Positions 4,067 to 22,715 of a stretch of 64,000 nucleotides of DNA are shown one piece after another. The stretch lies in the IMG/VR virus record IMGVR_UViG_3300010366_000012, positions 1-64,000 of that record; one strand, 5' to 3'. The position numbers were made by a program, and so were the translations under genes. Position 1 is the first letter of the stretch. Each line of letters begins with the position of its first letter. Below the pieces are notes generated by a model. The model was not told where the DNA came from, did no database searches, and saw only the letters and a program-made list of their open reading frames with translations. The DNA comes from a virus. Lineage: Duplodnaviria; Caudoviricetes.

Positions 4067-4262
4067 CCTGGCCGTGCGATGCGGCTCCCACCCGGTAGCC
4101 CACCTCGCCCCCGGGGGCCGGGATCACCGTGACTCCCCCCCTCACGGCCCCGGCCCTCACCTGAAAACGGGCACGTGCCCCTGTAAGTACATTGCTCCCC
4201 GCTGACTCCCCGCTGACCATCCTGTAACATGCCCGCAGCAAGCCAGCTCCCGGGGAGCAGTC

Positions 4263-5852
4263 ATGACCGAGCCCGACCCGACCGTGCCCGACCCGTCCGC
4301 TGCCCCGGACTCCGGCACCCAGCCCCCGGACGCCTCGTCGCTGCCGCTGCCCTCGCCCGGCCAGCTGCCGCCCGATCTCACCCCGCCCGGCTCGGAAGTG
4401 CCGCAGCCGGATGTGCCTACGGACGCCGTGCCGCCCGCGCCTGATGTCCCGGCCGAGCCCGCACCAGCTCCTGAGCCCGCGCCTGACGTCCCGGCTCCTG
4501 ACGTGCCCGCCCCGGATGCGCCACCGGCCCCGGATGCGCCTGCGCCTGACGTGCCAGCGCCGCCTCCCACTGGTGACGCTGGGCCGCCCCCAGACCAGCC
4601 GCTCCCGGTGCCCGAGCAGCCCGCGCCGCCGACTGACGCGCCGACTGCCGGGCCAGATTCGCCAGCTCCTGAGCCGCCAGCTCCTGACGCGCCTGTTGAT
4701 ACCACCCCTGCACCTGATCAGCCAGCGGAACCTGCGCCCGCGCCAGATGCGCCAGCGCCACCTGACGCGACGTCTCCACCGGATCAGCCGCCTGCAGACG
4801 GTGGATCAGCTCCTGATAGTGGCCCGGGTGCGGACCCAGGATCTGCCACAGGCCCCGCGGACCCGGGAACTGCTCCTGATCAGCCAGCGCCGACTGACGG
4901 CCAGCCCCCGCCAGATAGCCCTGCCCCGCCCGAGCCAGCACCCGCCCCAGAACCGCTGCCTGATACGCCAGCGCCGGACCAGCCACCTGCTCCAGAGCCA
5001 GCGCCAGGGCCTGCACCCGAGCCCCCAGCTCCTGAGCCACCGGCTCCAGAGCCCGCGCCAGATCAGCCAGCTCCTGCACCTGATCCTGTGCCGGAGCCCC
5101 CGGCCCCGGAGCCGAGTCCTCCAGATGCACCGCCACCACCGGAACCTGATCCATCTACGCCTCCCGATCCCGGGCAGCCACCTGCTCCAGAGCCTGTTCC
5201 AGAGCCTCCCGCACCGGAGCCGACGCCAGAGCCGCCCGCGCCAGAGCCAGCGCCAGAGCCTGAGCCCCCATCGCCTGAGCCAGCTCCTGCACCTGAGCCT
5301 GAGCCTCAGCCACCACCCGCAGAGCCTGAGCCGCCCGCGCCTCAGCCTGAGCCCGAGCCTGAGCCACCCGAATCACCTCCTGAGCCTGACGTCCCGGTCC
5401 CGATGCCGCCCCCGGTAGCCGAGCCGAGCCCGCCTGTCCCTGACATCCCACCGGGCCAGCCCGCGCCCGAGCCCGCCCCTGCCCCCGATGACGGCAGCGG
5501 GCCACCGGAAACGCCGCCCGCGCCGGAGCCGCCCGTGCCGTGGCCGGGACCGGCCCCCAGCCAGGAGCCGTCCGACACCGCGACCAGCAACGAGAACCCG
5601 GTCCTGCCGCACACCGCGGCGGCGGGCGCGGCCAGGGCAGCGGCGGTGTTCGAGCGCATGTTCACCATTGCCCAGGATGCCACCAGCGCCGACGCCAGCG
5701 CCGACGACAAGGACTTCGCGCTGCAGCGCATCCTGGCCATTGCCGAGGCCGCGATCGGGGATGTCGGCCGGTTCGCCCCGGCCGCGATGCGCCAGGCCGC
5801 CTCCGACCAGGTGGCCCAGATGGTGGCCGAGCAGGCACCCCCGCAGGGGTGA
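4263..5852 (+). CDS. Very Pro-rich low-complexity protein (529 aa) with a helical C-terminal domain
   Basis: About 440 aa of PAPE/PAPD/PEP repeats followed by ~90 aa of ordinary helical sequence; RBS GGGGAG before ATG. Confidence 0.8.
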   Translation: MTEPDPTVPDPSAAPDSGTQPPDASSLPLPSPGQLPPDLTPPGSEVPQPDVPTDAVPPAPDVPAEPAPAPEPAPDVPAPDVPAPDAPPAPDAPAPDVPAPPPTGDAGPPPDQPLPVPEQPAPPTDAPTAGPDSPAPEPPAPDAPVDTTPAPDQPAEPAPAPDAPAPPDATSPPDQPPADGGSAPDSGPGADPGSATGPADPGTAPDQPAPTDGQPPPDSPAPPEPAPAPEPLPDTPAPDQPPAPEPAPGPAPEPPAPEPPAPEPAPDQPAPAPDPVPEPPAPEPSPPDAPPPPEPDPSTPPDPGQPPAPEPVPEPPAPEPTPEPPAPEPAPEPEPPSPEPAPAPEPEPQPPPAEPEPPAPQPEPEPEPPESPPEPDVPVPMPPPVAEPSPPVPDIPPGQPAPEPAPAPDDGSGPPETPPAPEPPVPWPGPAPSQEPSDTATSNENPVLPHTAAAGAARAAAVFERMFTIAQDATSADASADDKDFALQRILAIAEAAIGDVGRFAPAAMRQAASDQVAQMVAEQAPPQG

Positions 5853-5930
5853 CGCAGATCGGGGCAGCACCCCGGTGCTGGCACACAGCGGGGACCATGT
5901 GCCGGGGTGCTTCCCTTCCCGGGAGGCAGC

Positions 5931-6650
5931 ATGCGCATCGTTCAGCCGGGGGAAGGCCCGAACCTGTGCGCCTGGCCTGCCGGGTGCCGCATCCACGAGA
6001 TCGACGGGCTGGAGTTCTGCCTGCAGCACGTGCCGGATGACCTGCTCGAAGAGGCTGAGGACGTCTCCGGGCACCAGCGCTGCCGCCGCCACTTCGGCCA
6101 GGATGACGCCTGCCGCCAGGTGGCGGTGAAGGGCACCAGTCCCCCGGCCTGCAAGAACCACGGCGCGAACCTGGGCAGCGTGAAGTCCAAGCAAGCCTCG
6201 ATGAACGTGGTGCAGGGCCGGGTCAGCGACCGGCTCACCGAGATCATGGGCGAGCACGGGGACCGGCTGCTGAGGCCGCGGCAGCTCGGCAACCCGCTTG
6301 AAGAGCTGCTGCAGCTCGCGCGGGAAATGGCCGAGTGGAAAGACATCATGCGGGAGATCACGGTCTACCTGCTGAAGCGCAACGACATCCGGGCCGGGTC
6401 GGCACGGGTCGGGGAGCAGATCCGCGCCGAGGTGCTGCTGTACGAGCGGGCGCAGGAGCGGCTGGCGGCGATCTTGCTGCAGATCCAGCGGGCCGGGATC
6501 GAGGCGGCGCTGGCCCGGATCACCGCCGAGCAGGCCAAGCAGGTAGACACCGCGCTGCGGATGGCGCTGACCGCGACGGGGCTCCCGCTGGTCGAGCAGG
6601 AGCAGGCCCGCCAGGTGCTGCGGCGGGAGCTGGTGAAGGCCACGGCGTGA
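5931..6650 (+). CDS. terS: Probable terminase small subunit
   Basis: GGAGG RBS; overlaps the terL start (GTGA); Cys/His motif 'C...CKNHGA' and helical C-terminus as in actinophage TerS-like proteins. Confidence 0.65.
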   Translation: MRIVQPGEGPNLCAWPAGCRIHEIDGLEFCLQHVPDDLLEEAEDVSGHQRCRRHFGQDDACRQVAVKGTSPPACKNHGANLGSVKSKQASMNVVQGRVSDRLTEIMGEHGDRLLRPRQLGNPLEELLQLAREMAEWKDIMREITVYLLKRNDIRAGSARVGEQIRAEVLLYERAQERLAAILLQIQRAGIEAALARITAEQAKQVDTALRMALTATGLPLVEQEQARQVLRRELVKATA

Positions 6651-8272
6651 GCTTCCAGCAGGCCATGCGGCAGGTGGCCGAGGGCTACAAGGGCGAGTCC
6701 GATGACCCGCGGCTGGTGTGGCGGCTGGGCGACCGGCAGGGCCGCAAGGCCCGCCCGGAGCAGCTCCTGCCCCCCGTCGCGGACGCCTGGCGGGTGATCT
6801 ACTTCCAGGGCGGCCGGGGGTCCGGCAAGACCCGCGCGGGCGCGCAGGGCCTGGCCGACTGGGTGCTCGATGACACCGATGGCGAGGGCGAGTACGGCAT
6901 CGTCGCGCCGACCTACGCCGACGCCTGGACGAAGTGCGTCGAGGGCAAGTCCGGGCTGCTGAAGGCGCTCGGCACCTCGATGGCCGAGATCCGCGACCAC
7001 CGGTCCAAGACCGTCAAGCACGCCTGGCGCACCTACGGCCAGGTGATCCTGCACAACGGCATCGTGATCTACGCCGACTCAGCTGCCGAGGGCGGCCTTC
7101 GAATACAAGGACGAAATCTAAAGGGTGCCTGGTGTGACGAGGTGGGATTGTGGGAGAAGTGGGAGGTGACCTGGAACGAGTCGCTGCGGTACGCGGTCCG
7201 CGACGGGATCTCCAAGATCATCGCCACCGGGACGCCTAAGGCATCCCGCCCGGCGCGCAAGCTGGTCCGGGCGCTGATCCGCAACGACCCCGGCGAGGGC
7301 GGGGTGGTCGTCCGCCGCCTGCGCACCGTGGACAACGCGGCCAACCTGTCACCCGAGTTCCTGCGCGCGGTGGTCGGCGCGGCGCAGGGCACCCGGCTGG
7401 AGCGGCAGGAGCTGGAGGGCGACCTGCTCGATGACGTCGCCAACGCGCTGTGGACCCGGGATCTGCTCGACTCGATCCGCATCGACTACTGGCCGTCCCA
7501 GCTGCGGATGATCAAGATCGGCGTGGACCCCTCGGACGGCGGCGAGACGTCCGACGAGCAGGCGTACACCGTGGCGGGCCTGGGCATGCCCGAAGATCCC
7601 TGGCCGCTGTGGGTCATGGAGAACTGGGGCGGGCAGGAGGCCCCGGTGCCGTTTGCGCAGCGGGTGATCCGCCGCGCGCTCGCGCTGGAGCGCCAGTTCC
7701 CGGGCACGCCGGTCGAGCTGATTATCGAGAAGAACCACGGCGGCAACTGGCTGAAGGCCACGTTTGCCGAGGTGATCCGGCAGATGAATGTCACGTGCCG
7801 GTACCGGATGATTCACGCCAGCCACGCCAAGCGGACCAGGGCCGAGCCGGTGTCCGCGCAGTATGAGGCGCGCGGCGGGCTGGTCCGGCACTGCCACATC
7901 GCCCGCAAGGTGCAAGGGCACCTGGTGCCCGACACGGGCATGCCCGAGCTGGAGGACCAGATGGCGACGTTCACGGGCGCGCAGGGCGAGCGCAGCCCGG
8001 ACCGCCTTGACAGCCTGGTCTGGGCGCTGTCCCCGTTCCTGATGCGGCAGTTCGGCCCGGCCGGGCCGCACGGGCCGCGCAAGTGGGCGGCCAGCCAGGA
8101 GCTGGAAGCCGCGGGCATGCCCGCCTACTCCCGGCTGCAGCGCCGCCTGGCTGAGGCGCACGGCGGGGCCTACCGCGGCGAGGGCTGGGATCTGGACGAG
8201 TTCGCCCCGGCCAGCGGTCACTACGTGCCCGAGCACGAGGGAGGCCGGGGGAATGTCAAGGGCTGGCGGTGA
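6647..8272 (+). CDS. terL: Terminase large subunit
   Basis: Walker A GGRGSGKT, Walker B AWCDE, 'IIATGTP' coupling motif, nuclease motifs IGVDPS and SPDRLDSLVWAL. Confidence 0.97.
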   Translation: MSFQQAMRQVAEGYKGESDDPRLVWRLGDRQGRKARPEQLLPPVADAWRVIYFQGGRGSGKTRAGAQGLADWVLDDTDGEGEYGIVAPTYADAWTKCVEGKSGLLKALGTSMAEIRDHRSKTVKHAWRTYGQVILHNGIVIYADSAAEGGLRIQGRNLKGAWCDEVGLWEKWEVTWNESLRYAVRDGISKIIATGTPKASRPARKLVRALIRNDPGEGGVVVRRLRTVDNAANLSPEFLRAVVGAAQGTRLERQELEGDLLDDVANALWTRDLLDSIRIDYWPSQLRMIKIGVDPSDGGETSDEQAYTVAGLGMPEDPWPLWVMENWGGQEAPVPFAQRVIRRALALERQFPGTPVELIIEKNHGGNWLKATFAEVIRQMNVTCRYRMIHASHAKRTRAEPVSAQYEARGGLVRHCHIARKVQGHLVPDTGMPELEDQMATFTGAQGERSPDRLDSLVWALSPFLMRQFGPAGPHGPRKWAASQELEAAGMPAYSRLQRRLAEAHGGAYRGEGWDLDEFAPASGHYVPEHEGGRGNVKGWR

Positions 8273-11797: not shown

Positions 11798-12175
11798 ATG
11801 ACTGACGCTGCTGCTGAGCAGGCACAGATCAACACGCTGGCCGACGCGATCAACGTGGTGGCTGCGCACCAGCAGGCTGCGCAAACGCAGATCCAGGCGT
11901 ACATCGCTGCGCACCCGGATGCCCCGCCTGCCGACCTGACCCCGCTGGTCAGCGCGGTCGCCTCGCTGCAGAACGCCGACACCGGCCTGGCTGCAGTGCT
12001 GCCCGCAATGCCAGATGCCCCTGCTCCCGCAGACCCGATCCCGGCTCCCCCGGACGACCCGTCTGTCCCGGTCGTGGATGCCCCGGTGGACACTGCGCCC
12101 ACCGACAGCGGCGCTGCCACTGACGGGACCACCGTGGACACTGGCCCGCCGCCAGATCAGCCAGCTTCTTTCTGA
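11798..12175 (+). CDS. Hypothetical coiled-coil protein with a Pro/Asp-rich tail
   Basis: AAGGAG RBS before ATG 11798 (an upstream GTG at ~11678 is possible); helical N-terminal half. Confidence 0.7.
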   Translation: MTDAAAEQAQINTLADAINVVAAHQQAAQTQIQAYIAAHPDAPPADLTPLVSAVASLQNADTGLAAVLPAMPDAPAPADPIPAPPDDPSVPVVDAPVDTAPTDSGAATDGTTVDTGPPPDQPASF

Positions 12176-12260
12176 CTCGCCTCTTGCGGGGCATACTGAA
12201 CGTGTTCCGCTCGACTTAGCTGGCTGTCCCCGCCCAGCGCCTCTGCGAGAGGCGGGGATC

Positions 12261-15200
12261 ATGGCACGCCCGGTCGCGCTCACACCGCTGCGGGCTGCTG
12301 CCGCGCGGCGGATGCGGCGCACCGCCCAGGCGCTGGACGAAGATCACCCTGAGACGATCGCCGGGGATCACCTGCGGGATGCCGCCCGGGTGCTGGAGCG
12401 CGGGTCCGCTGATGGAGCGAAGCGGCACCTCGATGCCGCGATGCAGCTGCTGACGCCGCAGTCCCTGCTGCGGCACGGCATCCGCGATGACGAGGGCCAC
12501 GCGACTGCCAAGCACCACATGCACGAGGTTCACCGGCATCACCTCGCGGTGCAGGACATCGAGGACACGGCGGGCAGCAACGACCGGCTGGCCGCGATGG
12601 CCCGTGCCGCCCGTGGCCAGCCCGAGCCGATGGAGCCGTTCCACCGGCAGCCGCCCGAGCTGCTCCCGGCCATCGCCGCCACTGGTGATCATGGGAATCG
12701 CGTGATCGACCTGAAGGCCACGGCCTGGGAGCGCGAAATGCGCGACCGGTATGGCAAATGGGCCGCCTCCCCCGACTTCGCGCCGATCACCTCGATGTTC
12801 GCTCCGGGCGGGCCGCACGGCTTCCGCGGCCACTCGATCGGATCGCAGCCGGAGAAGGGCTCGGTGTTCGGCCGTCACCTGAGCATGCACGAGGCTCTCG
12901 GCGCGGCCGAAGCGCTCGGCCCGGGACACCCGAAGCAGGTGGCCAGCGCGCAGATGGCCGAGCGGGCGGGCCTCCCGAAGTTCCAGCGCAAGGTGTATGA
13001 CCTGCTGCGCAAGCGCGGCCGGGGGCACTACGGCGCGCTAGTCCTGGCGCGGGCGACTACGCCCGATGTGTTCCGGGCGGGCACGTTCGCCAACAGCAGC
13101 CCGGCTGTGCAGCTGGCGTTCTGGGAGCACGAGCGGCGCAACGCGCTCGGGGAGTGGACGACCGGCGCGGACCCGCACCAGGCACCGTTCGGCTCGAACC
13201 TGCGGCCGGGCAGCCTCAACCACCTGCGCGCGATCGAGGATCTGTCCCGGCTGACCGGGTGGAACGCCACTGATGGCCGCCCGTCCTCAGACACCTTGCG
13301 CAACTCGCTGCACCACCTGGCGCACGCGCTGGCGCTGCGCGACATGAAGTCCGCCCGGGTGCATATGGCATCGGCCCGGTGGGCCGACGAGCACGAGGCG
13401 GGCGGCGCGTACACGCCTGAGCTGGACGCGATCGAGCGCTCTCTCGGCCTGGTGAACGTCCACCGGTCGGCCAGGTGGATGCGCCGCAGCGGCGGCCACG
13501 GGCCACATGCCTACGGGCGCACCGGCACGCCGCTGGAGCCGACGCGGGGCGCGATGCACGTGCCGGTCACCGAAATGATGTCCAACGCCACCGAGCTAGC
13601 CGCCCCGTTCCGCTACCGGCACGGCTGGATCAAGCTGGAGGATGCGAGCCCGCTGGACGGGCGGGTGGTCATCGCCAAGGCGGCGGGCGGCGGGCGGGTC
13701 GCGGGCGTCTATGACCACGCGACCCGGACCGTGCAGCCCCGGCACACCAAGCGGCTCCCGGTCACCGCCGTGCGGAAGGCGGGCGAAGTGATGTCTGCAG
13801 CCAAGACGCCGCGCGGCCTGGCGAAGTACCGGGCCGCGTATGGCGCATATGGCCTGGCTACCGAGCTGTCGGCACGGACAGGAGCACTTGGAACGTACAC
13901 TAAGACGTGGGTAAATGGGACTACGGCAACCGTCACGCGAGGGCTAGGCGGCACCTCGGCTCGCCGCGCAGCCATCCTTGCGCAGATTGTGGCGGCCAGG
14001 CGATCCACTGGGCTACGATCCACGGCCGGGATGGGGAGAGCCCTGAGGACTATCGGCCGCTCTGCAACCCCTGCCACATCGCCTACGACGGCGGTCACGC
14101 TGGCGAGCGCAACGGCCGGGCCAGGCTCACTTGGAACGAGGTTGCTGAGATCAGAAGGCGGTACGCGGCAGGAGAGGGTGGCTACAGCACCTTTGCCCGC
14201 GAGTACGGGATCGCCCGGTCAGCCATTGCGGACATCATCAAGCACCGTCATTGGGTTGTCCGCTAGAACTCCCTTCTTGGAGCGCACGCCCGCGCCGCGG
14301 GGCCGCCCTGGCGGGCCGGGCCTGTATCACGTCCAGGGCATGGGCCACACCGCCTACCTGCAACAGGTGGTCAAGGCGCTGATCGAGAAGCGCGGCATGC
14401 GGCCGGACAAGGCGTATGCGATTGCCCGCGCGGCGATCCGCAAGTGGGCGGCCCGGTCGAGGCATCCCGAGGTGCGCGGCGCGGCGACCCGGGCCGAGGC
14501 CGGGGAGATCGCCCGGCAGGCCCGCGCCAAGGCGCACACCGCGGCTGCCTGGGAAGTGGCGGACGTCCTGATCGAGCTGGCGTGCGAGCCGATCGAGCTT
14601 TTCAACCCCTACCATGCGCCACCCGGCGCTGGCGGCGGGCAGTTCACCACGCAGCAGGGCGCGGGCCAGGGGCAGGCCAAGGGCAGCAAGGCCCAGCGCC
14701 GGGCCAAGCTGGTCAAGCAGATCGCCAGCCTGCGGCGGCAGATCGCGGCGCTCCGGGCGCAGCTCCCGTCCACCTCGCCGCGCAAGCCTGGCAAGCCTGG
14801 CAAGTCCAAGGGCAGCACCCCGGCCAAGAAAGGCGCGGGCGCGCAGTCTGCCAAGCAGGCCAGGCAGGGCAAGCAGTCGGCTAAGACCGCGGCGCGCAAG
14901 ACCGCCTCGGTGGCCACGATCCATGCCAAGATCGCCGCGCTGCGGGCCGAGCTGCAGGCCGACATCGCCGCGCTGCGGAAGCTGGCCAACGACCAGCCCG
15001 CGATCGAGCTGATCGGGGACGGCCACGGGCACCACATCCCCGGCACGCCGGACGTCTACAGCCACGGCTGGCGGCCACTGGCCGGGACCACGATCGGGCC
15101 TAAGGGCATCCGCATTCCGGGCAGTGGCGGTGGTCCCCCAAAAGTCGCTAGCGCGGGACGGGTGCGCGCCGCGGTCAAGGCCGCCCGCATCACCAGGCCC

Positions 15201-15995
15201 GCGGTCACCCCGGCTGCCACCGCACCGGCCGCGCCCAAGCCCTCTGCGGGCGGGACCGCTGGCCTGGCTGCCGCGATGTCCTCTGGCGTGAAGAGCCGCA
15301 AGGAGCCCGGGAAGGCGTCGGTCAGCGGGTCGCAGGGCCTGCAGGGCGGCACCGAGATCGTCACGTTCAACAACGGCGCTCAGTTCGTCCACAAGGACTA
15401 CAAGTACCTGCCGCTTCCCCCGGGCCTCCAGCAACTGCAGGCGCAGAAGGAGGTGCTGGCTGCCAAGATCTCCAAGGCCCTCGGCGCGGGAGCGCCGGAC
15501 ATCATCCCCGATCCGGGCGGCAGCCCGACCAGTTTCTACATGGCGAAGATCGAGGGAGTCTCCGGCATGGAGAAGTTCAATGGCCCGGCCAGTGGCCTCC
15601 AGGGTTCCGACGCGGCGGCAGCGGAGAAGTTCTTCAACTCCCCCGAGGGCAAGAAGATCGGGCTGCTGGACATGATCATCGGGCATGCCGACCGGCACCT
15701 GGGCAACGTCATGGTCACCCCGGACGGCAAGCCAGTCCCGATCGACCACAATGACACCTGGGGCGCGGTGGACCTGAACGGCAACATGGTCACCACCAGC
15801 CCGTTTGCCGCCGAGCTAGAGAAGCAGATGAAGGCGGGCAACAGCCCGTTCAGCGTGGATGACATCGACCGGATCACCGCGCAGGTCAAGGCGCTCCAGC
15901 CCGAGTTCGGCAAGCTGAACTTCGACGCCGGGTCCAGCTACTACAGCATGACGATGAGTGAGCTGGCCCGGATCAGGAAGCTGGTGGCGAAGTGA
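12261..15995 (+). CDS. Large modular head-region polyprotein (1244 aa) with C-terminal HipA/PI3-4-kinase-like domain
   Basis: Repeated (I/V)(E/D/Q)L(A/S) module headers; 'YLQQVVKALIEKRGMRPDKAYAIARAAIRKWA' module; kinase at ~15340-15995 with FVHK, EVLAAKIS, LLDMIIGHADRHLGNVMV, IDH. Confidence 0.8.
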   Translation: MARPVALTPLRAAAARRMRRTAQALDEDHPETIAGDHLRDAARVLERGSADGAKRHLDAAMQLLTPQSLLRHGIRDDEGHATAKHHMHEVHRHHLAVQDIEDTAGSNDRLAAMARAARGQPEPMEPFHRQPPELLPAIAATGDHGNRVIDLKATAWEREMRDRYGKWAASPDFAPITSMFAPGGPHGFRGHSIGSQPEKGSVFGRHLSMHEALGAAEALGPGHPKQVASAQMAERAGLPKFQRKVYDLLRKRGRGHYGALVLARATTPDVFRAGTFANSSPAVQLAFWEHERRNALGEWTTGADPHQAPFGSNLRPGSLNHLRAIEDLSRLTGWNATDGRPSSDTLRNSLHHLAHALALRDMKSARVHMASARWADEHEAGGAYTPELDAIERSLGLVNVHRSARWMRRSGGHGPHAYGRTGTPLEPTRGAMHVPVTEMMSNATELAAPFRYRHGWIKLEDASPLDGRVVIAKAAGGGRVAGVYDHATRTVQPRHTKRLPVTAVRKAGEVMSAAKTPRGLAKYRAAYGAYGLATELSARTGALGTYTKTWVNGTTATVTRGLGGTSARRAAILAQIVAARRSTGLRSTAGMGRALRTIGRSATPATSPTTAVTLASATAGPGSLGTRLLRSEGGTRQERVATAPLPASTGSPGQPLRTSSSTVIGLSARTPFLERTPAPRGRPGGPGLYHVQGMGHTAYLQQVVKALIEKRGMRPDKAYAIARAAIRKWAARSRHPEVRGAATRAEAGEIARQARAKAHTAAAWEVADVLIELACEPIELFNPYHAPPGAGGGQFTTQQGAGQGQAKGSKAQRRAKLVKQIASLRRQIAALRAQLPSTSPRKPGKPGKSKGSTPAKKGAGAQSAKQARQGKQSAKTAARKTASVATIHAKIAALRAELQADIAALRKLANDQPAIELIGDGHGHHIPGTPDVYSHGWRPLAGTTIGPKGIRIPGSGGGPPKVASAGRVRAAVKAARITRPAVTPAATAPAAPKPSAGGTAGLAAAMSSGVKSRKEPGKASVSGSQGLQGGTEIVTFNNGAQFVHKDYKYLPLPPGLQQLQAQKEVLAAKISKALGAGAPDIIPDPGGSPTSFYMAKIEGVSGMEKFNGPASGLQGSDAAAAEKFFNSPEGKKIGLLDMIIGHADRHLGNVMVTPDGKPVPIDHNDTWGAVDLNGNMVTTSPFAAELEKQMKAGNSPFSVDDIDRITAQVKALQPEFGKLNFDAGSSYYSMTMSELARIRKLVAK
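13907..14266 (+). CDS. HNH-type homing-endonuclease-like gene nested out of frame inside 12261..15995
   Basis: CADCGGQAIHW...YRPLCNPCHIAYD zinc/HNH-like motif plus C-terminal GERNGRARLTWNEVAEIRRRY...AREYGIARSAIADII HTH typical of phage HNH endonucleases; codon use differs from flanks. Confidence 0.85.
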   Translation: MGKWDYGNRHARARRHLGSPRSHPCADCGGQAIHWATIHGRDGESPEDYRPLCNPCHIAYDGGHAGERNGRARLTWNEVAEIRRRYAAGEGGYSTFAREYGIARSAIADIIKHRHWVVR

Positions 15996-16189: not shown

Positions 16190-16347
16190 CAAGGAGGGCG
16201 TGCTCGGCCACGTCTGGCTGCAGGATGGCCAGCTGACCGGGGACAACCCGTCTGCGCAGCAGCTGGCGGACAAGTATCAGGCCAGGTACGGCGCTGACGC
16301 TTACGCCGAGCTGGCGAAGCTGGACAACGGATACGTGCGGGCCAGTG
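16150..16347 (+). repeat. 23-bp direct repeat CAACGGATACGTG(T/C)GGGCCAGTG
   Basis: Copies at 16150-16172 and 16325-16347 with one mismatch; each ends in the GTG start of the following gene. Confidence 0.9.
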
Positions 16348-16358
16348 AATATCAGTGA
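16170..16358 (+). CDS. Small protein ending in NGYVxAS (paralog 2; candidate immunity protein)
   Basis: GTG start at 16170: MALQLSDKEGVLGHVWLQDGQLTG...LAKLDNGYVRASEYQ, similar to paralog 1. Confidence 0.7.
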   Translation: MALQLSDKEGVLGHVWLQDGQLTGDNPSAQQLADKYQARYGADAYAELAKLDNGYVRASEYQ

Positions 16359-19300
16359 CCAGGTTGACCTGGCAGCCTGGACGCACGAGCGCCGGGTGCC
16401 CAAGGGCATGCCTGGCGCTGGGCGGTGGATCAGGGGCGGGCCGGGCATCTTCCGGGTGGCCGGGTTCGAGCCGGGCGTGGCCAAGCCCGAGGTGGGCGAC
16501 AAGGTGGTGGGGGAGGGGCCTGGCGATCTCCCCGGCCTGCTGCTCGGGCACGTGGTGGCACGGGTGGGCCTGGTGGCCGCGGTGGACGCCGACGACGGGC
16601 ACCGCTACCAGTTCGACTGGACGAGCGGCAAGGTGGTCGGGGACCGCGTGCCACTGTCGCGGGCGATGCCCGCCGAGCAGCTGCGCCAGGCGGGCCAGCA
16701 CGAGGCGGCATTGCGCGAGCGGCAGCACAACTTCCGCAGGCAGGCCAACGCCACCTGGACGGTAGATGAGAAGGGCTCGATCGTCCACCACGCGCATGCG
16801 CCGCAATCCCTGGTGGACCGGGTGTCAAGGTTCCGCGCCAAGATCCGCGCGCAGGCTGGGGCTGACGTCAGCCCGCCCCCTCATCACGCCCCCGGTGTCT
16901 CGGCGGGTGTGCGGGCGCTCCGGCAGGCCCGCGAGCGGGAGAAGGCCGCGATCATTTCGGTGGAGCGTGACCCGCATCCGCCCAACCCGCTCGCGCCGTG
17001 GCTGGTGAAGGCCGCGGACCTCAGCGAGTGGCACGTCGATGACCGCGAGGCGGGCCGCCTGCACAAGATGCTCCGCGAGCGCGAGGGCCTGCACTACACC
17101 GCCCCGGGCACTGAGATCGCCCCCGGCGTCAAGCAGTACATGCTGCCGGGCACCGAGAAGCTGCAGCCCACCACCGAGTACGGCCAGAACAGCCCCCCGG
17201 TGAAAGAGCTGCGCTCGGTGATCACGCTGGGCGAGCTGGAGCGGGCCAAGATGCTGCCCGAGGACCAGCCCGAGCAGGGCATCCAGGGCGTGACCCGCAT
17301 CCTCACCCTGCCGGACTACGGCGAGGGCGTGCGGAAGGTCGTGGTCAAGGACCAGGCCCCGGAGCGCAACGACCGCGAAGAGCTGTCCTACTACGTCAGC
17401 CAGGCGCTCGGCGGCGGGTCCGGCCTGCCCACGGTGGTGCGCTACCCGGGCAACCCGGGCCGGATCGTGGAAGATGTGGTGCCCGGACGGCCTGCCGCCC
17501 GCTATGCGATGGATGCAGTGACCCCGGGCGGCGACTGGGGGCCGAATTACGACGAGCAGAGCGTGCTGGACGAGATCGCCTACAGCCCGACCGGCCAGGA
17601 GATCGGGCTGCTGGACTACCTGACCGGCAACTATGACCGGCACGACTACAACTACCTGATTGACGAGCAGGGCGTCCCGCACCCGATTGACATGGGCATG
17701 GCGCAGTTCGACGGCGGCACTGATAGCCCGTTCTGGGAGGGCGAAGAGGGCCAGGTGCCCGCCGAGGTGGTCGATGAATGGGCAGCCGAGCTGGCGAAGA
17801 TCGAGCCCGAGTTCCGCCGCCTCGGGCATGAGGACTGGTACGTGGTGATGATGGATGCCCTGTCCCGCCTGGCCGAGTCCAGCGAGTATTCGATCGGTGC
17901 GCAGCTCGGCGTGATCGAGCTGACCCGCAGCCCGGCCTGGCTGCACGAGCTGCGCATCCCCAAGGGCAGGCCGCACGCCGGGGAGTGGGTTCATTCCCCG
18001 TCCGATGTGCCGGGCAAGGGCCTGGACCGCTACAAGATGCCCCCGCACTCCCGGCTGCTCAACCCCCGGGCCGACGTCGAAGATCCGGCCGATTACCCAT
18101 TCTTCAAGAAGCACCCGGTCAGCGTGCAGAACGTGCTCGATGCCTACGACGCGGTGCCCGAGCAGACGCGCAAGGAGGGCATGAAGTGGTACTCCGACGC
18201 GCACCTGCTGGCCAGGGCGATCGGGATGCTCGGCGGCGGTCACGGGGATGACAGGCAGAACGCCGAGCTGGGCGCGATCCTGCTGGGCAACTACAGCAGC
18301 TCGGCTAACTGGCCGATCAACATGTTCCGCGCGGCGCGGGCGTCGGATGAGAACAAGCCGATCGCCAAGGGCGACGGGTATGTGTCCCAGGACCAGGTGA
18401 AGAAGGCCCAGAAGGCCCTGGACGGCATGAGCATTGATGACGTCCTGATCAGCCCCAAGACACGCAGCTTCGCCCACCTGCTGGCCACGGGCGATGACTC
18501 ACCCGACGACCCCTACGGGCACGTGGTGATCGACGCGCATGCGCTGAACGTGGCGATGGGCGGCGGGGAGCGCGGGCTGACCTACGTCCGGGGCAAGAAG
18601 CAGCAGGAGCTGCCGCCCGAGGACACCCCGCCGCTCGATGACGCCCGCGCGCACGAGTATGTCGGGGACATGTACCGGGAGGCCGCCCGGATCATCAGCA
18701 AGCGGGACGGGCAGCTGATCACCCCCTACCAGGTGCAGGCGGTCACCTGGGTCCAGCAGGTGCTGGCCAACATGGCCCTGGACAAGGCGGAAATGGAGGG
18801 CGCTGAGGGTGGCGTGCTGGGCCGGGCCAAGGGCCGGTTGTCGGCCAAGGCCAAGGACTGGCAGCGCTGGCTGGCCTATGCCAAGGCACACAATCTGCAG
18901 CTGGTGCCCGGCGTGTCGGCGCTGGCGCACGAGGCGATGATGGCGCAGCTGATCGAGCTGATCGGGGAGGACGCCATCTACAGCCAGGTGATCGAGCTGG
19001 ACTTCAACCCGGGCCAGCCGCGCGGGCCGGACGGGAAGTGGATCAAGATTGGGGGGCTCACGGCGCTCGACCCGTTCTACAACGAGCTGCCCGAGTCCGG
19101 GCACCGCGGCACCGTCCGGGTCAAGGGCACGCTCGGGCCGGGCGGGCTGGGCCGCGAGCGCGAGGACGCCGAGCGGCTGGCTGCCTACCGCGAGCAGCAG
19201 TACCAGGCGACGAAGGTGCAACGGCAGCGGCAGCACGCCTACCCGGAGATCGGGCCGGAGAATGCCCGGGGCAACAGCAGGCCGGTCAGCCCCGAAGAGT

Positions 19301-19929
19301 TCCAGCACCTCGCCTCGCTCGGCAACCAGTGGATCGACCAGGCCAAAGATCACCGCGCCCCGATCATCGGCCTCGAAGGCCCGGAGTGGGATGCAGTCAA
19401 GGCGCGCAGCTACGGCGAGGTGACCAAGAGCTGGGGCGGCGCGACGATCGACACCGACACCGGCAAGCCGCTGGCCCATGATGCTGACGTGTACGCAATC
19501 AGCGTCAAGCCCCGCGGGATGTACACCGTCTCGGTCCCCGAGTCGGCCACGGCCGAAGAGTTCGGCCGGGCGATGGACCGGGCCAAGGAGCTGTTCCGCC
19601 CGGCGCTGGAGCGGCGCGGATTCTACCTCGGCGTGTTCCACGACGATGACGAGGGCCGGATCGACATCGACCCGGTGGCCATCGTGGACTCGATCCCGCT
19701 GGTCGAGCAGGTCGGCGCGTACACCCGGGCGATTGGCGGCGCATACCATTTCAAGAGCGGCGACGGGTTCTGGCCGCCGCACGTCGAGCAGGGCGCGAGC
19801 ATGGCAGACGACGACACTCACTTCGAGCACGGGTATGCCCAGTGGCACACCCAGGCGGTGGCCGTGCAGGAGCCCGAGCCGGACGAGCCGGGCATCGCGG
19901 AGCAGCTGGGCGAAATCGGGCAGATGTAA
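16345..19929 (+). CDS. Large modular head-region polyprotein (1194 aa): HipA/PI3K-like kinase, HhH-glycosylase-like domain and an unknown domain
   Basis: Kinase at ~17270-17890 (VVVKD, EELSYYVSQAL, LLDYLTGNYDRHDYNYLI, IDMG); domain at ~18120-18770 (GMKWYSDA...SPKTRSF...VVIDAHA...QVQAVTWV); domain at ~19240-19800 (GGATIDTDTG...YLGVFHD); FNPGQPRGPDGKW linker. Confidence 0.8.
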   Translation: MNISDQVDLAAWTHERRVPKGMPGAGRWIRGGPGIFRVAGFEPGVAKPEVGDKVVGEGPGDLPGLLLGHVVARVGLVAAVDADDGHRYQFDWTSGKVVGDRVPLSRAMPAEQLRQAGQHEAALRERQHNFRRQANATWTVDEKGSIVHHAHAPQSLVDRVSRFRAKIRAQAGADVSPPPHHAPGVSAGVRALRQAREREKAAIISVERDPHPPNPLAPWLVKAADLSEWHVDDREAGRLHKMLREREGLHYTAPGTEIAPGVKQYMLPGTEKLQPTTEYGQNSPPVKELRSVITLGELERAKMLPEDQPEQGIQGVTRILTLPDYGEGVRKVVVKDQAPERNDREELSYYVSQALGGGSGLPTVVRYPGNPGRIVEDVVPGRPAARYAMDAVTPGGDWGPNYDEQSVLDEIAYSPTGQEIGLLDYLTGNYDRHDYNYLIDEQGVPHPIDMGMAQFDGGTDSPFWEGEEGQVPAEVVDEWAAELAKIEPEFRRLGHEDWYVVMMDALSRLAESSEYSIGAQLGVIELTRSPAWLHELRIPKGRPHAGEWVHSPSDVPGKGLDRYKMPPHSRLLNPRADVEDPADYPFFKKHPVSVQNVLDAYDAVPEQTRKEGMKWYSDAHLLARAIGMLGGGHGDDRQNAELGAILLGNYSSSANWPINMFRAARASDENKPIAKGDGYVSQDQVKKAQKALDGMSIDDVLISPKTRSFAHLLATGDDSPDDPYGHVVIDAHALNVAMGGGERGLTYVRGKKQQELPPEDTPPLDDARAHEYVGDMYREAARIISKRDGQLITPYQVQAVTWVQQVLANMALDKAEMEGAEGGVLGRAKGRLSAKAKDWQRWLAYAKAHNLQLVPGVSALAHEAMMAQLIELIGEDAIYSQVIELDFNPGQPRGPDGKWIKIGGLTALDPFYNELPESGHRGTVRVKGTLGPGGLGREREDAERLAAYREQQYQATKVQRQRQHAYPEIGPENARGNSRPVSPEEFQHLASLGNQWIDQAKDHRAPIIGLEGPEWDAVKARSYGEVTKSWGGATIDTDTGKPLAHDADVYAISVKPRGMYTVSVPESATAEEFGRAMDRAKELFRPALERRGFYLGVFHDDDEGRIDIDPVAIVDSIPLVEQVGAYTRAIGGAYHFKSGDGFWPPHVEQGASMADDDTHFEHGYAQWHTQAVAVQEPEPDEPGIAEQLGEIGQM

Positions 19930-20073: not shown

Positions 20074-21519
20074 GTGACGTCCCCCGTTGTTGATCTTGTT
20101 GGCCCCGGGCTGACCTCTCTGTGCGCTGACTGCGCTGCAGTTGAGCTGGCTGCTGGCGGGCCGCACGGGTTCAAGCACGGCTGGGTCTGTGTCGATCCCG
20201 CCAAGTGCGGGCACCGCGGCGTCAGCGGGCGCGCTCACACCTCGCGGCTGGTCGCCCGCGACGTCCGCGGGCAGCGCGCCCGGCTGAAGAATGCCTCCCC
20301 CTCCCTGGCGGCCAACCGGGCCACGGCGGCGCTGAAGGGCAAGCGGGGCTCGGACTACCAGCACCTGGCCGCCGCCCGACTGCACGCGGCTGCGGCCAGG
20401 TCAGCCAGCTCGCCGGAGCTGAGGGCGCACCACGACCGGATGGCCAAGATGCACCGGGGCATCGCGGTGCGCACTCCCGGCCGGATGACCGGCGCACCGA
20501 AGCGGGACAGCGCGGGCCGCCAGCTCGGCAAGAACGCGCAGGGCGAAACGACCCGCACGATGCCGGACTTCTCGGGCCGGGGCAAAGGCCCCCCGGAGTT
20601 CGAGGCCGGGCGCAGGGCATCGCAGCAGGGCAAGGGTCCATTCCGCACGCCCCGGCCGCTGCCGTGGCCGGGCAACAAGCGCACGCCCCGGCCGCTACCG
20701 TCCTACAGCAAGCCGATTGGCCCCAACATGGGACAGCTGGGCAAGGCTGCCAAGGGCAGCAACAGGAACCTGTCCAAGGCGAACCGGGCCACGGCGTATG
20801 CGGCCGGGCACGCGCTGCCGCCGCCGAGCAAGGGCGCACCGCACGGCTTCCCGGTGACCAGCCCCAAGTCCTGGGAGGACGCCCGCAGGGCGGTCGGCCG
20901 GGTCAAGTCACCGGCCCGGCGCGCTCAGCTGAAGGCGCTGCTGCGCCGCACTGCTGCCCAGTACGGCAAGACCAAGGCGCTGAAGGCGTCCTGGGCGGCA
21001 GCCAACACACTCCCCGGACTGGAGCTTGCCGTGCCTGCATCCCTGGCTGTGACCAGCCCCTACGACGTCATGATCACCCGGGCGCAGGACGGCAGCTCTG
21101 CAGTGATACGGCACCGCCGCGGCGGGGCTGAGATCGGGACGATCAAGAGCACCCCCGAGGGCTGGGTCGCGGTCGCTGGCGGGAAGGATCTGGCCCCGCA
21201 CACCCGCCAGCGCGCCGCGCTTCTGGAGCTGATCGGGACGCACAACCGGGCCAGCGGGACGCCCTACCACCGGCCGACCGAGCCGCTGCAGCCTAAGCCC
21301 GAGCAGACCGAGCTGATGCGCCAGTACGGCATCCCCGCGATCCGCGCGATGGCCACGCCCTCGGCCGGTGCCGACGACGGACCCCGGGTCACCACGAACG
21401 GGCTGAGCCCCCGGGGCACGGCGATCTACAAGAAGCTGCGCAGCCGGAACTTCCCGCACGAGCGGGCGCACGCCTTCGCCCGGAGGGCGCAGAACAAGAT
21501 CCGGGGGCGGGGCAAGTGA
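20074..21519 (+). CDS. Basic modular head-region protein containing a DUF6582-like module
   Basis: Module ANRATAYAAGHA...GFPVTSPKSWEDARRAVGR...RRTAAQYG...W; same ELA-type headers; directly upstream of the protease. Confidence 0.75.
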   Translation: MTSPVVDLVGPGLTSLCADCAAVELAAGGPHGFKHGWVCVDPAKCGHRGVSGRAHTSRLVARDVRGQRARLKNASPSLAANRATAALKGKRGSDYQHLAAARLHAAAARSASSPELRAHHDRMAKMHRGIAVRTPGRMTGAPKRDSAGRQLGKNAQGETTRTMPDFSGRGKGPPEFEAGRRASQQGKGPFRTPRPLPWPGNKRTPRPLPSYSKPIGPNMGQLGKAAKGSNRNLSKANRATAYAAGHALPPPSKGAPHGFPVTSPKSWEDARRAVGRVKSPARRAQLKALLRRTAAQYGKTKALKASWAAANTLPGLELAVPASLAVTSPYDVMITRAQDGSSAVIRHRRGGAEIGTIKSTPEGWVAVAGGKDLAPHTRQRAALLELIGTHNRASGTPYHRPTEPLQPKPEQTELMRQYGIPAIRAMATPSAGADDGPRVTTNGLSPRGTAIYKKLRSRNFPHERAHAFARRAQNKIRGRGK

Positions 21520-22715
21520 GCGTAGCGGTCCTGACCCCGTTCACCGGGGATGACGGGACACAGGCCAGCGGTCGCTGGCGGAAGAAACTGCTGCCCATCG
21601 GGGAGATCAACTACAAGGGCCGGGTGCTGAAGTTCACCCGCGACTACCTGGCCGGGCTGGTGGACTCCTTCCAGCGCCGTGCCTACGACCAGGTGCCGTT
21701 CCAGCTGGCTGATTCGGCCAACACGCACACGAATGATGTGGAGCGCACCGGGGGCCAGATCACCGACATGTCCCTGGAGCCAGACGGGCTCTGGATCGAG
21801 CTGCAGCCCACCGAGCGCGGCGCGCGGGTGCTGGCTGACAACCCCGGTGTCGGCGTGTCCGCCCGGATTGTCGAGCAGTACGAGCGCTCGGACGGCGAGC
21901 ACTTTCCCCGCGCGGTGCAGCACGTGCTCTGCACGCTGGACCCCCGCATCCCCGGCATGGGCGGCTGGGAAGCCGTCGCAGCCTCCAACGATGCCGCAGA
22001 GATCACGATCGACCTCTCCGGCGAGCACTTCACAGGAACGGAGATCTCCATGCCGGAGCTGACTAAGGACCAGCAGGACAAGCTGGCCCAGCTGCTGGAC
22101 CTGGACCCCGCCAAGCTGGCTGCGCTGGTGGCCAGCCAGGAGGGCGGCGGGATCAGCCCTGAGGCCGTCGCGGCGCTGGACGGTGACGCCGACGCCGACG
22201 ACGCGGAGGCAGCCGAGGTGGCCAGGTGGATCGACGGGCTGACCGATGACCAGCTGGCCGAGCTGGAAGCCGAGCTGGAAGCCGAGGATGGCGAGCGCGA
22301 GCCCGAGCCCGCGGCGCTGTCTGGCGAGGACGCCTCCGCGGTGGAGCTGGCCCAGGCCACGGGTGACGAGGCGCTGCGGCAGCTGGCGATCGTCAACGGC
22401 CAGCTGGACAGCGAGCGGTGGCAGAACGAGCGCCGCAAGCTGGTGGCTGCGGGCACCCCGCCGTTCATCGCGGACCTGGCCCAGCCACTGCTGGAGGGCG
22501 CGGGCCACGTGGTGGACCTGGCCAACGGCAAGTCCGTGGACGCCGGGCTGATCGTCCGCAAGATCCTCACCGAGTTCCAGAAGCTCGGCCAGCAGCTCGG
22601 CCTCGGCATCGAGCTGGGCACCGAGGCGGACGAGCCGGAGGACACCACCGTCGAGGACTCCCGCAACGACGTGGTGACCCGGGCCAAGGCGCAGCTGTTT
22701 GGCATCCGCTCATGA
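21516..22715 (+). CDS. Mu gpI-like prohead protease / scaffold fusion
   Basis: N-terminal KLLPIGEINY...VPFQLAD...H...G...L...GLW...GVSARI...HVLCTLDPRIPGM; acidic coiled-coil C-terminal half. Confidence 0.88.
   Translation: MSVAVLTPFTGDDGTQASGRWRKKLLPIGEINYKGRVLKFTRDYLAGLVDSFQRRAYDQVPFQLADSANTHTNDVERTGGQITDMSLEPDGLWIELQPTERGARVLADNPGVGVSARIVEQYERSDGEHFPRAVQHVLCTLDPRIPGMGGWEAVAASNDAAEITIDLSGEHFTGTEISMPELTKDQQDKLAQLLDLDPAKLAALVASQEGGGISPEAVAALDGDADADDAEAAEVARWIDGLTDDQLAELEAELEAEDGEREPEPAALSGEDASAVELAQATGDEALRQLAIVNGQLDSERWQNERRKLVAAGTPPFIADLAQPLLEGAGHVVDLANGKSVDAGLIVRKILTEFQKLGQQLGLGIELGTEADEPEDTTVEDSRNDVVTRAKAQLFGIRS

What the first reader, a model, noticed from the sequence alone, without database searches (positions are those of the whole stretch)
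13863..14270. HNH endonuclease gene nested in another reading frame of the polyprotein, bracketed by a duplicated LSART motif
Seen: a complete HNH+HTH ORF (13907-14266) lies wholly inside ORF 12261-15995 on the same strand in a different frame. The host frame stays open. The segment is exactly 390 nt between two copies of the peptide LSART (ATELSART at 13866, VIGLSART at 14256) encoded by different codons, and has atypical codon use. TACACT lies 5 nt before the GTG, suggesting a leaderless transcript. There is too little non-ORF sequence for a group I intron and no intein termini. Inference: a homing endonuclease that stays harmless without splicing, by inserting in frame between two putative protease-cleavage headers so the 130-aa junk peptide is cut out during head maturation, while the recoded copy may protect the site from self-cleavage.
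Basis: partly seen in the sequence, partly recalled or inferred. Interest (0 to 1): 0.8.

Follow-up and report, generated by a model that had tools for sequence, protein, structure and literature searches.

The report
Hidden homing nuclease inside virion polyprotein
A selfish DNA-cutting gene sits, one base out of step, inside a phage virion polyprotein gene that is read straight through it; related phages show the empty site, and the element carries its own re-coded copy of the five-residue header it landed behind, a twist on a kind of element first described in 2025.

Summary
A 390-nt insert (13881-14270) lies in frame in polyprotein gene 12261-15995, and it holds a complete HNH+HTH gene (13907-14266) in the third frame. 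One of them (L026) shares the window's upstream context. Two other phages carry the element at the same site: L018 (HNH 84% identical) and L030 (47%). L030 and its empty partner L035 repeat the window's anatomy. The insertion point is right after the Thr codon of the header, and a second, re-coded header copy sits at the element's 3' end. Selection acts on the HNH frame (dN/dS 0.17) and not on the host frame (1.5). All three occupied alleles carry an AGR Arg codon where every empty allele has C at that base, which fits self-immunity. No intron or intein signature was found. The open host frame needs no special selection, because 5-19% of comparable sequences are open by chance.

The closest thing in print is the ShiLan hidden HNH element (Arsenault et al. 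2025). This scan has noted similar nested nucleases on other DNA. The new features are the virion polyprotein host and the element-borne header copy. Excision of the junk peptide by the head protease is plausible but untested, and L018 lacks the upstream header.

The parts
12261..15995 (+). Host gene: a modular virion polyprotein (polyvalent-type, 1244 aa) that lies between the MuF-like gene and the protease/scaffold and capsid genes. It is read through the insert without a stop.
   Evidence: The database calls it as one 1244-aa protein (P0018). It has a PI3/PI4-kinase-like hit at the C-terminus.
13866..13880 (+). Native copy of the module header (LSART), written in codons typical of this genome. 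The insertion point is right after its Thr codon.
   Evidence: The empty allele L026 has the same upstream context and the same header, directly followed by the downstream module.
13881..14270 (+). The inserted element: 390 nt, or 130 host-frame codons of unconstrained 'junk' peptide.
   Evidence: It is absent from 19 related loci. GC is 0.64 against 0.73 in the flanks, and the codon phase flips. Host-frame dN/dS is 1.48.
13896..13901 (+). A -10-like hexamer (TANNNT type) 5 nt before the start codon, with no Shine-Dalgarno sequence. It is a candidate promoter for a leaderless HNH transcript.
   Evidence: The hexamer is identical in L018. L030 has a different TANNNT hexamer 8 nt before its ATG. 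The sigma-70 consensus scan finds nothing, so this is inference.
13907..14266 (+). HNH (His-Me finger) plus helix-turn-helix endonuclease gene, 119 aa, in the third frame of the host gene.
   Evidence: Homologs at 84%, 64% and 47-53% identity. Gordonia phage genes match at E 4e-15. PHROG 20467 'HNH endonuclease' matches at E 7e-5. dN/dS is 0.17. The AF2 model shows a beta-beta-alpha unit plus a 3-helix HTH. The best N-domain structural matches are the GVE2 and Gme HNH nucleases, Z 5.1 and 4.6.
14256..14270 (+). Element-borne, re-coded second copy of the header. It uses the rare codons TTG and AGA, overlaps the last HNH codons and contains the HNH stop.
   Evidence: TTG is 28 of 1229 Leu codons and AGA is 6 of 931 Arg codons in this genome. 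An AGR codon is shared by all three occupied alleles and by none of the eight distinct empty alleles aligned.
14271..14741 (+). Start of the conserved downstream module: a Pro/Gly-rich stretch followed by a helical domain. It is the probable recognition region and homology arm for homing.
   Evidence: 79-87% protein identity to L003. It is invariant across 10 loci over many columns. Nucleotide identity to empty alleles dips in the first 60-90 nt.

Best explanation
This is a free-standing HNH homing endonuclease cassette of the 'hidden, out-of-frame' (ShiLan-like) kind. It has homed into the DNA that encodes the five-residue header of a conserved module of a mosaic virion polyprotein.

Shown:
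- The cassette is foreign.
- It is present or absent at one exact point, right after the header's Thr codon, in two independent pairs of related phages.
- The HNH frame is under purifying selection.
- The host frame across the insert is open but unconstrained.

Inferred:
- The nuclease is made from its own -10-like box as a leaderless or near-leaderless message.
- It cuts empty alleles in or next to the header-coding DNA.
- The break is repaired from an occupied genome. The long conserved downstream module serves as the right arm. On the left there is only the header codons or an illegitimate joint, because the upstream modules differ between phages. This would explain both the exact insertion point and the L018 allele, in which a whole module was lost.
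- The host polyprotein is translated straight through the insert, with no RNA or protein splicing. The 130 extra residues sit in a flexible stretch between modules.
- The element's 3' end supplies a second header, so the downstream module keeps its native N-terminal boundary.
- That second copy and the next 60-90 nt are synonymously re-coded, including a C-to-A change in the Arg codon, which protects the occupied allele from its own nuclease.

The open host frame is a filter on arrival, not a special adaptation. Whether the head protease then trims the junk peptide away is open; I put it at about one in three.
For: - Real gene: the HNH has homologs and dN/dS of 0.17, against 1.48 (host frame) and 1.54 (+2 frame).
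- Foreign origin: GC content and codon phase differ from the flanks.
- Empty sites: 15 IMG/VR loci, L026 with the identical upstream context, L027 and L035.
- Occupied sites: L018 and L030.
- Identical insertion point and header duplication in the pairs window/L026 and L030/L035.
- An AGR Arg codon in all three occupied downstream copies, at a base invariant in the eight distinct empty alleles aligned.
- A re-coded downstream tract. L030 has 10 of 30 A/T-ending codons against a 3% background (p 1e-8). L018 has 7 of 30 (p 0.03). Nucleotide identity dips in the first 60-90 nt.
- All three occupied alleles are in frame and open, which would not matter if the insert were spliced out.
- No Rfam match.
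- The family is normally free-standing: Gordonia phage genes sit beside Cas4 and RecA genes, and L019 sits between two genes.
- Published precedent with the same anatomy exists (PMC11855218).
Against: - No expression, cleavage or protein data exist.
- The N-terminal domain reaches no curated Pfam HNH model. Its structural matches are modest (Z about 5; Foldseek E 0.13).
- The candidate catalytic His is not invariant in the family.
- The promoter claim rests on one hexamer. The consensus scan finds no sigma-70 promoter.
- In the window itself, enrichment of A/T-ending codons downstream is not significant (5 of 30, p 0.19).
- Only three occupied alleles, representing two lineages, are known.
- The structure model of the host segment is too poor (pLDDT 46) to show that the site is a flexible linker.
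Confidence: 0.8

Rival explanations
1. This is the first reader's model, an add-on to the best explanation rather than an alternative to it. The two header copies are cleavage sites of the prohead protease. During head maturation the junk peptide is cut out on both sides, so the host protease stands in for splicing.
For: - The header duplication recurs in a second lineage whose HNH is only 47% identical. The element has therefore kept a header at its 3' end for a long time.
- Header-like motifs are enriched in the three polyproteins and at the junction of the putative protease and scaffold domains (21516-22715, no family match). There are 5 hits against 0.36 expected, and no shuffle of 500 reaches 5.
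- Modules are swapped exactly at headers.
- Each separate polyprotein gene starts with a short leader followed by a header.
- Polyvalent virion proteins are known or predicted to be processed (PMC5512222).
Against: - There is no direct evidence that any header is cleaved.
- The motif was defined after the fact from these same proteins.
- L018 carries the element with no upstream header, so its junk would stay attached to the upstream fragment.
- The window's downstream copy has Gly at the position where all empty alleles have Glu or Leu.
- The duplication also has a purely DNA-level explanation: a portable left micro-homology arm plus an immune right copy.
Confidence: 0.33
2. The insert is a spliced element: a group I or II intron, a non-canonical intein with an out-of-frame endonuclease, or a long translational bypass between the two header copies.
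For: - Inteins with endonucleases in another frame or on the other strand exist in actinophages, including in minor capsid genes (bioRxiv 10.1101/2025.01.02.630785).
- The repeated header could in principle serve as paired take-off and landing sites, or as splice junctions.
Against: - No Rfam family matches even at E 10.
- Only 26 + 4 nt lie outside the HNH ORF.
- The host-frame peptide has no Cys/Ser start and no His-Asn end at any register allowed by the repeat. It evolves at dN/dS 1.5.
- All occupied alleles are multiples of 3 and stop-free, which splicing would make unnecessary.
- No stop follows the would-be take-off codon, and 390 nt is far beyond known bypasses of about 50 nt.
Confidence: 0.04
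3. The nuclease is no longer selfish. It would be a domesticated gene, for example a helper of packaging or a driver of module exchange in the polyprotein genes, or it would be an inactive relic.
For: - It lies in the head gene block. HNH proteins assist terminases in some phages (from established knowledge, and mentioned in PMC11855218).
- In L018 the cassette replaced a whole module exactly at header boundaries.
- Nuclease genes mark recombination boundaries in other phages (PMC10448857).
Against: - It is absent from 19 related loci with otherwise the same head genes, so it is not needed for packaging.
- Purifying selection (0.17) argues against a relic.
- The re-coded target next to the gene is the hallmark of an active homing enzyme.
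Confidence: 0.08
4. The insertion has split the host into genes-in-pieces. The upstream part would end in junk, and the downstream module would be made separately from an internal start, for example the TTG of the second header copy.
For: - Endonuclease insertions that split phage genes into two working pieces are known, such as Aeh1 nrdA and T4 gene 39/60 (PMC2988022).
- The second header begins with TTG, a possible start codon.
Against: - There is no stop codon in the host frame in any of the three occupied alleles.
- There is no Shine-Dalgarno sequence before the TTG.
- L030 has CTA at that position, not a start codon.
Confidence: 0.04

Closest known systems
ShiLan domain and the Pacc40 gp60 insertion: hidden out-of-frame HNH insertion elements in actinophage DNA methylase genes (Arsenault, Gosselin and Gogarten 2025, Genes 16:178, PMC11855218)
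   Same: - An in-frame insert that is absent from close relatives and has no stop in the host frame.
- A complete HNH gene in the host's third frame on the same strand.
- A GTG start a few bases inside the 5' end (18 nt in ShiLan, 26 nt here) and a stop within the last bases of the insert.
- No detectable intron or intein, no Shine-Dalgarno sequence, and leaderless initiation proposed.
- Actinophage setting.
   Different: - The nuclease is different and much smaller (119 aa against 195 aa). tblastn of the phage collection at E 1e-5 returns no mycobacteriophage.
- The host is a virion polyprotein, not a methylase.
- The site is a boundary between modules, not a catalytic core.
- The element carries a re-coded duplicate of the host header, with an immunity-like base change. 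No duplication is mentioned in that paper.
- One allele replaced a whole module.
Free-standing homing endonucleases of T-even phages (seg and mob genes; 'intronless homing'), reviewed in Edgell, Gibb and Belfort 2010, PMC2988022
   Same: - A stand-alone nuclease gene next to its target in a conserved gene.
- The ORF ends overlap the neighbouring coding sequence.
- Weak or absent ribosome-binding sites.
- Flanking DNA is co-converted.
- The occupied genome is protected by polymorphisms in the target (plus established knowledge of SegF and SegG).
   Different: The T-even genes sit between genes, or split a gene into two separately translated pieces. Here the host frame runs unbroken through the nuclease gene.
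Non-canonical actinophage inteins whose endonuclease is encoded in another frame or strand (Gosselin, Arsenault and Gogarten, bioRxiv 10.1101/2025.01.02.630785)
   Same: An endonuclease ORF overlaps an open host frame. The hosts are actinophages, and minor capsid genes are among the targets.
   Different: Those elements keep intein splicing blocks in the host frame. Here there are none, and the host-frame peptide is unconstrained.
Polyvalent proteins of phages and conjugative elements (Iyer et al. 2017, PMC5512222), as the host gene
   Same: - Long multi-module proteins encoded next to MuF and portal genes.
- Kinase-like and DUF7178/ParB-like modules, with extensive module mosaicism.
- Predicted packaging into the head and processing.
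   Different: No embedded zincin peptidase was detected here. The repeated short header at module starts is not described in that paper's text as far as I searched it.

Membership tests
ShiLan-type hidden out-of-frame HNH insertion element | The insert is present in some close relatives of the host gene and absent from others (disjunct distribution). | tested here: met
   Three occupied alleles (window, L018, L030) against 19 empty loci, including the matched empty partners L026, L027 and L035.
ShiLan-type hidden out-of-frame HNH insertion element | The insert length is a multiple of three and has no stop codon in the host frame. | tested here: met
   390 nt in the window, 399 nt in L030, and 366 nt replacing 357 nt in L018. 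The host frame is open over 1351, 978 and 553 codons respectively.
ShiLan-type hidden out-of-frame HNH insertion element | A complete endonuclease ORF in another frame of the same strand, starting a few bases inside the insert and stopping at its 3' end. | tested here: met
   The GTG is at bases 27-29 of the insert, in the third frame. The TAG ends 4 nt before the insert's end.
ShiLan-type hidden out-of-frame HNH insertion element | No intron or intein features. | tested here: met
   Rfam scan at E 10 finds nothing. No intein termini are present. Host-frame dN/dS is 1.48.
ShiLan-type hidden out-of-frame HNH insertion element | Sequence relationship of the nuclease to the ShiLan or Pacc40 nucleases. 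| tested here: not met
   tblastn against 50,697 phage records at E 1e-5 gives only Gordonia, Pseudomonas and Myxococcus phages. It is the same kind of element, but not the same nuclease lineage.
HNH / His-Me finger endonuclease | A beta-beta-alpha metal-finger fold with paired CxxC zinc ligands and the His...Asn/Asp...His triad. | tested here: met
   The AF2 model has strands 34-37 and 49-52 and helix 54-61, with pLDDT about 80 there. Cys25, Cys28, Cys53, Cys56, His57 and Asp48 are invariant in the family. His39 is conserved in most members but not all. The best N-domain structural matches are the GVE2 HNH (5h0o, Z 5.1, 59 residues aligned, rmsd 3.6) and the Gme HNH (4h9d, Z 4.6).
HNH / His-Me finger endonuclease | A match to a curated HNH profile. 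| tested here: inconclusive
   No Pfam HNH model matches, even at E 1. PHROG 20467 'HNH endonuclease' matches at E 7e-5 over residues 22-116. The PDB profile search gives only the Cas5-HNH domain at E 0.43.
HNH / His-Me finger endonuclease | Metal-dependent DNA cleavage or nicking. | not testable with these tools
   This needs purified protein and empty-allele DNA.
Free-standing homing endonuclease (intronless homing) | The target in the occupied genome differs from the empty-allele target, and flanking DNA is co-converted. | tested here: met
   A C-to-A change at an otherwise invariant base is found in all three occupied alleles. The downstream tract is re-coded. This is indirect evidence, because the cleavage site is unknown.
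Free-standing homing endonuclease (intronless homing) | Super-Mendelian transfer into empty alleles in mixed infection. | not testable with these tools
   The phage is uncultured.
Intein | Cys/Ser/Thr at the first residue, a TxxH block, and a terminal His-Asn followed by Cys/Ser/Thr, all in the host frame. | tested here: not met
   The host-frame insert has none of these at any register allowed by the repeat, and it is unconstrained as a protein.
Group I / group II intron | A conserved ribozyme core outside or around the ORF. | tested here: not met
   cmscan of 13500-14700 at E 10 gives no match. Only 30 nt of the insert lie outside the ORF. An unknown ribozyme class cannot be excluded by this test.
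Polyvalent virion protein (host gene) | Many unrelated modules in one polypeptide, encoded in the head-gene block next to the portal and MuF genes. | tested here: met
   The gene order is terminase, Mu-type portal, MuF-like gene, then the polyproteins with kinase-like and DUF7178 modules, then scaffold and capsid genes. Module content differs between relatives.

The most novel reading that the evidence does not exclude
The element has solved the 'how to live inside a gene' problem in a third way, beside introns and inteins. It lands behind a processing header of a head polyprotein and brings a re-coded copy of that header. The phage's own maturation protease then cuts the out-of-frame junk peptide out of the protein. 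The same re-coded copy makes the occupied allele immune to the nuclease, and the native copy serves as a portable left homology arm in otherwise mosaic genes. A corollary is that such nucleases, by cutting at header-coding DNA, drive the module shuffling of polyvalent virion proteins, as in L018, where a module was replaced.
Probability: 0.3. Interest if true: 0.8.

Novelty: new variant of a known kind. Interest (0 to 1): 0.5.

Why it matters
Hidden out-of-frame homing endonucleases were described only in 2025, in methylase genes, and without matched empty and occupied alleles that show the repair scars.

This case adds several things. The strategy extends to structural polyprotein genes. It gives two independent empty/occupied pairs with a base-exact insertion point. 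It supplies a candidate immunity change. It also gives a measured answer to why the host frame is open: a filter on arrival, at a base rate of roughly 5-19%.

It makes one idea directly testable: that a host protease can substitute for splicing.

In practice, standard gene callers report either the polyprotein or the nuclease but not both, so such genes are under-annotated in actinophage and metagenomic genomes. The nuclease also has a well-defined natural target of about 60 nt, which makes it an easy enzyme to characterise.

Tried and rejected
- Megablast and tblastn of the host region against 50,697 phage records found nothing.
- A single-protein scan of IMG/VR with the HNH found nothing. 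Only the alignment-based scan found L030.
The repeat found only distant free-standing relatives.
- The genome-contig scan with the HNH alignment found no relative.
- A search of 5.8 billion proteins with the junk peptide alone (residues 541-670 of the host) returned only the window's own protein.
- The sigma-70 promoter and terminator scan of 13600-14500 found nothing.
- Foldseek against the PDB gave no match at E 0.001 or better.
- The profile search of PDB sequences gave only insignificant zinc-ribbon and Cas5-HNH hits.
- AF2 of the 417-aa host segment was too poor (mean pLDDT 46) to say more than that the header region and most of the junk are low-confidence.

Ideas considered and dropped:
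- That the cassette's 5' end is a remnant of the start of the neighbouring module, and that its 3' end copies another lineage's header context. The nucleotide similarities (58-65% over 15-33 nt) are not beyond chance.
- That continued openness of the host frame in the window and L018 shows selection. About 1.7 stop-creating synonymous changes would be expected, so p is only about 0.2.
- Translational bypass.
Full report
**Observation.**
The window is most of a 75-kb, 70% GC viral contig. The ORF listing shows a 119-codon ORF, 13907-14266, on the + strand. It lies wholly inside a frame that is open from 12015 to 15995. The protein database holds 12261-15995 as one 1244-aa product (P0018). The small ORF starts with GTG, one codon after a TAA in its own frame. 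It is preceded by TACACT (13896-13901) and has no Shine-Dalgarno sequence. The peptide LSART is encoded at 13866-13880 and again at 14256-14270 with different codons. The second copy uses TTG and AGA, which make up 28 of 1229 Leu codons and 6 of 931 Arg codons in this genome. The stretch 13881-14270 is exactly 390 nt. All stated coordinates hold.

**The insert is foreign, and the small frame is the real gene.**
- GC falls from 0.73 in the flanks to 0.64 in the insert.
- The GC-rich codon phase jumps from the host's third position (0.905 and 0.91 in the flanks) to the small ORF's third position (0.76). This is the only such flip in the three polyprotein genes.
- The product has relatives at 84, 64 and about 50% identity. 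It matches small genes of Gordonia phages (E 4e-15) that sit free-standing beside Cas4 and RecA genes.
- A profile search finds 3,822 cluster representatives at E 1e-10. Many of the best hits are small stand-alone proteins of 107-230 aa.
- Residues 63-116 form a helix-turn-helix domain. The same domain is attached to a different (HNH_3) nuclease domain in other proteins.
- Residues 5-62 carry two CxxC pairs and a His/Asp/His set. AF2 folds them as a beta-beta-alpha unit.
- The only structural matches for that part are two HNH nucleases, GVE2 (Z 5.1) and Gme (Z 4.6). Foldseek and a PDB profile search both point weakly to the HNH domain of Cas5-HNH.
- No Pfam HNH model is reached. The assignment is therefore probable, not certain.
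- Between the window and L018, dN/dS is 0.17 in the HNH frame, 1.48 in the host frame and 1.54 in the third frame. The nuclease is kept by selection, and the host-frame peptide is junk.

**Empty and occupied alleles.**
The module that follows the insert is highly conserved (79-87% identity).
- Fifteen IMG/VR loci from at least five lineages carry this module with a single header and no insert. The modules upstream of the header differ between lineages.
- P0020/L026 has the same upstream context as the window, with its header followed directly by the module.
- L018, a 93-kb ENA contig, has the same cassette (HNH 84% identical) joined to the same module, with the host frame open. Against its close empty relative L027, the cassette replaces a whole 357-nt module. 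There is a sharp left break just before that module's header and a right break at the LSART header. L018 has no upstream header copy.
- L030, another IMG/VR contig, carries a 47%-identical HNH (ATG 3001-3408) in the same relative frame of a 969-aa host ORF.
- L030's empty partner L035 has the same upstream module (83% identical), with its header followed directly by the conserved module.
- In L030 the insert (2981-3379, 399 nt) again starts right after the Thr codon of a native header and again ends with a second, re-coded header.

Two independent empty/occupied pairs thus share a base-exact insertion point and the header duplication.

**Signs of homing and immunity.**
- Across eight distinct empty alleles, 27 of 69 columns around the site are invariant. 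The only invariant column changed in all three occupied alleles is the first base of the header's Arg codon: C in every empty allele and in both native upstream copies, A (AGA, AGA, AGG) in the element-borne copies.
- AGR is 7.5% of Arg codons here.
- The DNA just downstream is synonymously re-coded. L030 has 10 of 30 A/T-ending codons against a 3% background (p 1e-8). L018 has 7 of 30 (p 0.03). The window has 5 of 30 (not significant).
- Nucleotide identity to the empty partners dips in the first 60-90 nt and then rises.
- These are the marks expected of a free-standing homing endonuclease: a co-converted flank and a protected target (PMC2988022, plus established knowledge).

Because upstream modules differ between phages, only the right side offers a long homology arm. 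The native header copy, or an illegitimate joint, must serve on the left. This would explain both the exact insertion point and the module loss in L018. That step is inference.

**Why the host frame is open.**
- In this genome's genes, 5.4% of 130-codon windows are stop-free in the +1 frame.
- 19% of synonymous re-codings of this HNH keep the host frame open.
- Among about eight free-standing relatives, one (L019) is fully open in that frame and several are open over most of the core.

A filter on arrival is enough, and no special adaptation is needed. Even so, two independent lineages being both in frame and open is unlikely unless translation through the insert matters, and that argues against splicing.

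**Splicing alternatives.**
- Rfam finds nothing at E 10.
- Only 30 nt of the insert lie outside the ORF.
- The host-frame peptide has no intein ends at any register allowed by the repeat.
- No stop follows a would-be bypass take-off codon.

**Expression.**
A TANNNT hexamer lies 5 nt before the GTG in the window and in L018, and another lies 8 nt before the ATG in L030. None of the three has a Shine-Dalgarno sequence. By my estimate from base frequencies, the chance of this in two lineages is below 1e-3. The consensus promoter scan is negative. A leaderless message is a reasonable inference, and the same was proposed for ShiLan.

**Host gene and the protease idea.**
The gene order is terminase, Mu-type portal, MuF-like gene, three modular polyproteins (with kinase-like and DUF7178 modules), an ORF with no family match (21516-22715, read here as a putative protease-scaffold gene), then scaffold-like and capsid genes. 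This fits the polyvalent virion proteins of Iyer et al..

A header-like motif occurs 5 times in the polyproteins and at the junction of the putative protease and scaffold domains, against 0.36 expected. The motif was defined from these same proteins. Modules are exchanged at headers.

That the element has kept a header at its 3' end across deep divergence fits a need for an intact module boundary. Excision of the junk by the head protease at both headers is therefore plausible; I put it at about one in three. It is untested, and L018 shows it is not obligatory.

**Comparison and novelty.**
The anatomy matches the ShiLan domain and the Pacc40 insertion in actinophage methylases (PMC11855218). 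Shared features are the third frame, a GTG just inside the insert, a stop at its end, no splicing signals and proposed leaderless initiation. The nuclease here is unrelated at the sequence level. The host is a structural polyprotein, the site is a module boundary, and the element-borne re-coded header with an immunity-like change is not described in that paper.

Earlier notes of this scan report similar nested nucleases on other DNA. I therefore rate this a new variant of a known kind, of moderate interest.

Noticed in passing
L018:5399-5550 (ENA contig ERZ25039552 contig_37614): The polyprotein of the L018 phage changes frame between a header near 5460 and the next module. The upstream ORF (4240-5550) and the frame that holds the rest (open 5399-7060) overlap, and no start codon occurs in the second frame before 5669. 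This is either a one-base assembly error or a real frameshift or decay of the gene.
   Followed up: partly
L018:5984-6349 versus L027:3236-3592: In the L018 lineage the nuclease cassette did not simply insert. It replaced a complete 119-codon module, with breaks exactly at header boundaries. This suggests that nuclease-induced breaks contribute to module shuffling in these polyproteins.
   Followed up: partly
window 12261-15995 and 16345-19929: Both large polyproteins carry a short PI3/PI4-kinase-like catalytic-loop match (Pfam PF00454, E 1.4e-6 and 0.009). The second also carries DUF7178. Kinase modules in polyvalent proteins were described mainly for Verrucomicrobia and Bacteroidetes phages, so actinophage versions may be of interest.
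   Followed up: no
HNH residues 63-116 (window 14093-14254) versus P0009-P0014: The C-terminal helix-turn-helix domain of the nuclease is 56% identical to that of proteins whose N-terminal nuclease domain is of a different type (Pfam HNH_3). This is an example of domain swapping between homing endonuclease families.
   Followed up: partly
window 40590-41940, inside ORF 39120-42764: The GC-rich codon phase moves to the first codon position over three stretches of this 1214-aa tail-region ORF. This is probably Gly-rich repeat sequence rather than nested genes, but it was not examined.
   Followed up: no
L002 (IMGVR_UViG_3300021560_000539): A second IMG/VR contig is 100% identical to the first 193 codons of the host gene, but it ends before the insertion site. 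The same or a near-identical phage was therefore sampled in another metagenome, and its allele state is unknown.
   Followed up: no
window 6335-6725: The first ~390 nt of the long ORF listed for the large terminase have their GC-rich phase in another frame. The true terminase start is probably near 6700, and the ORF 5907-6650 in that other frame is probably the real gene there.
   Followed up: no
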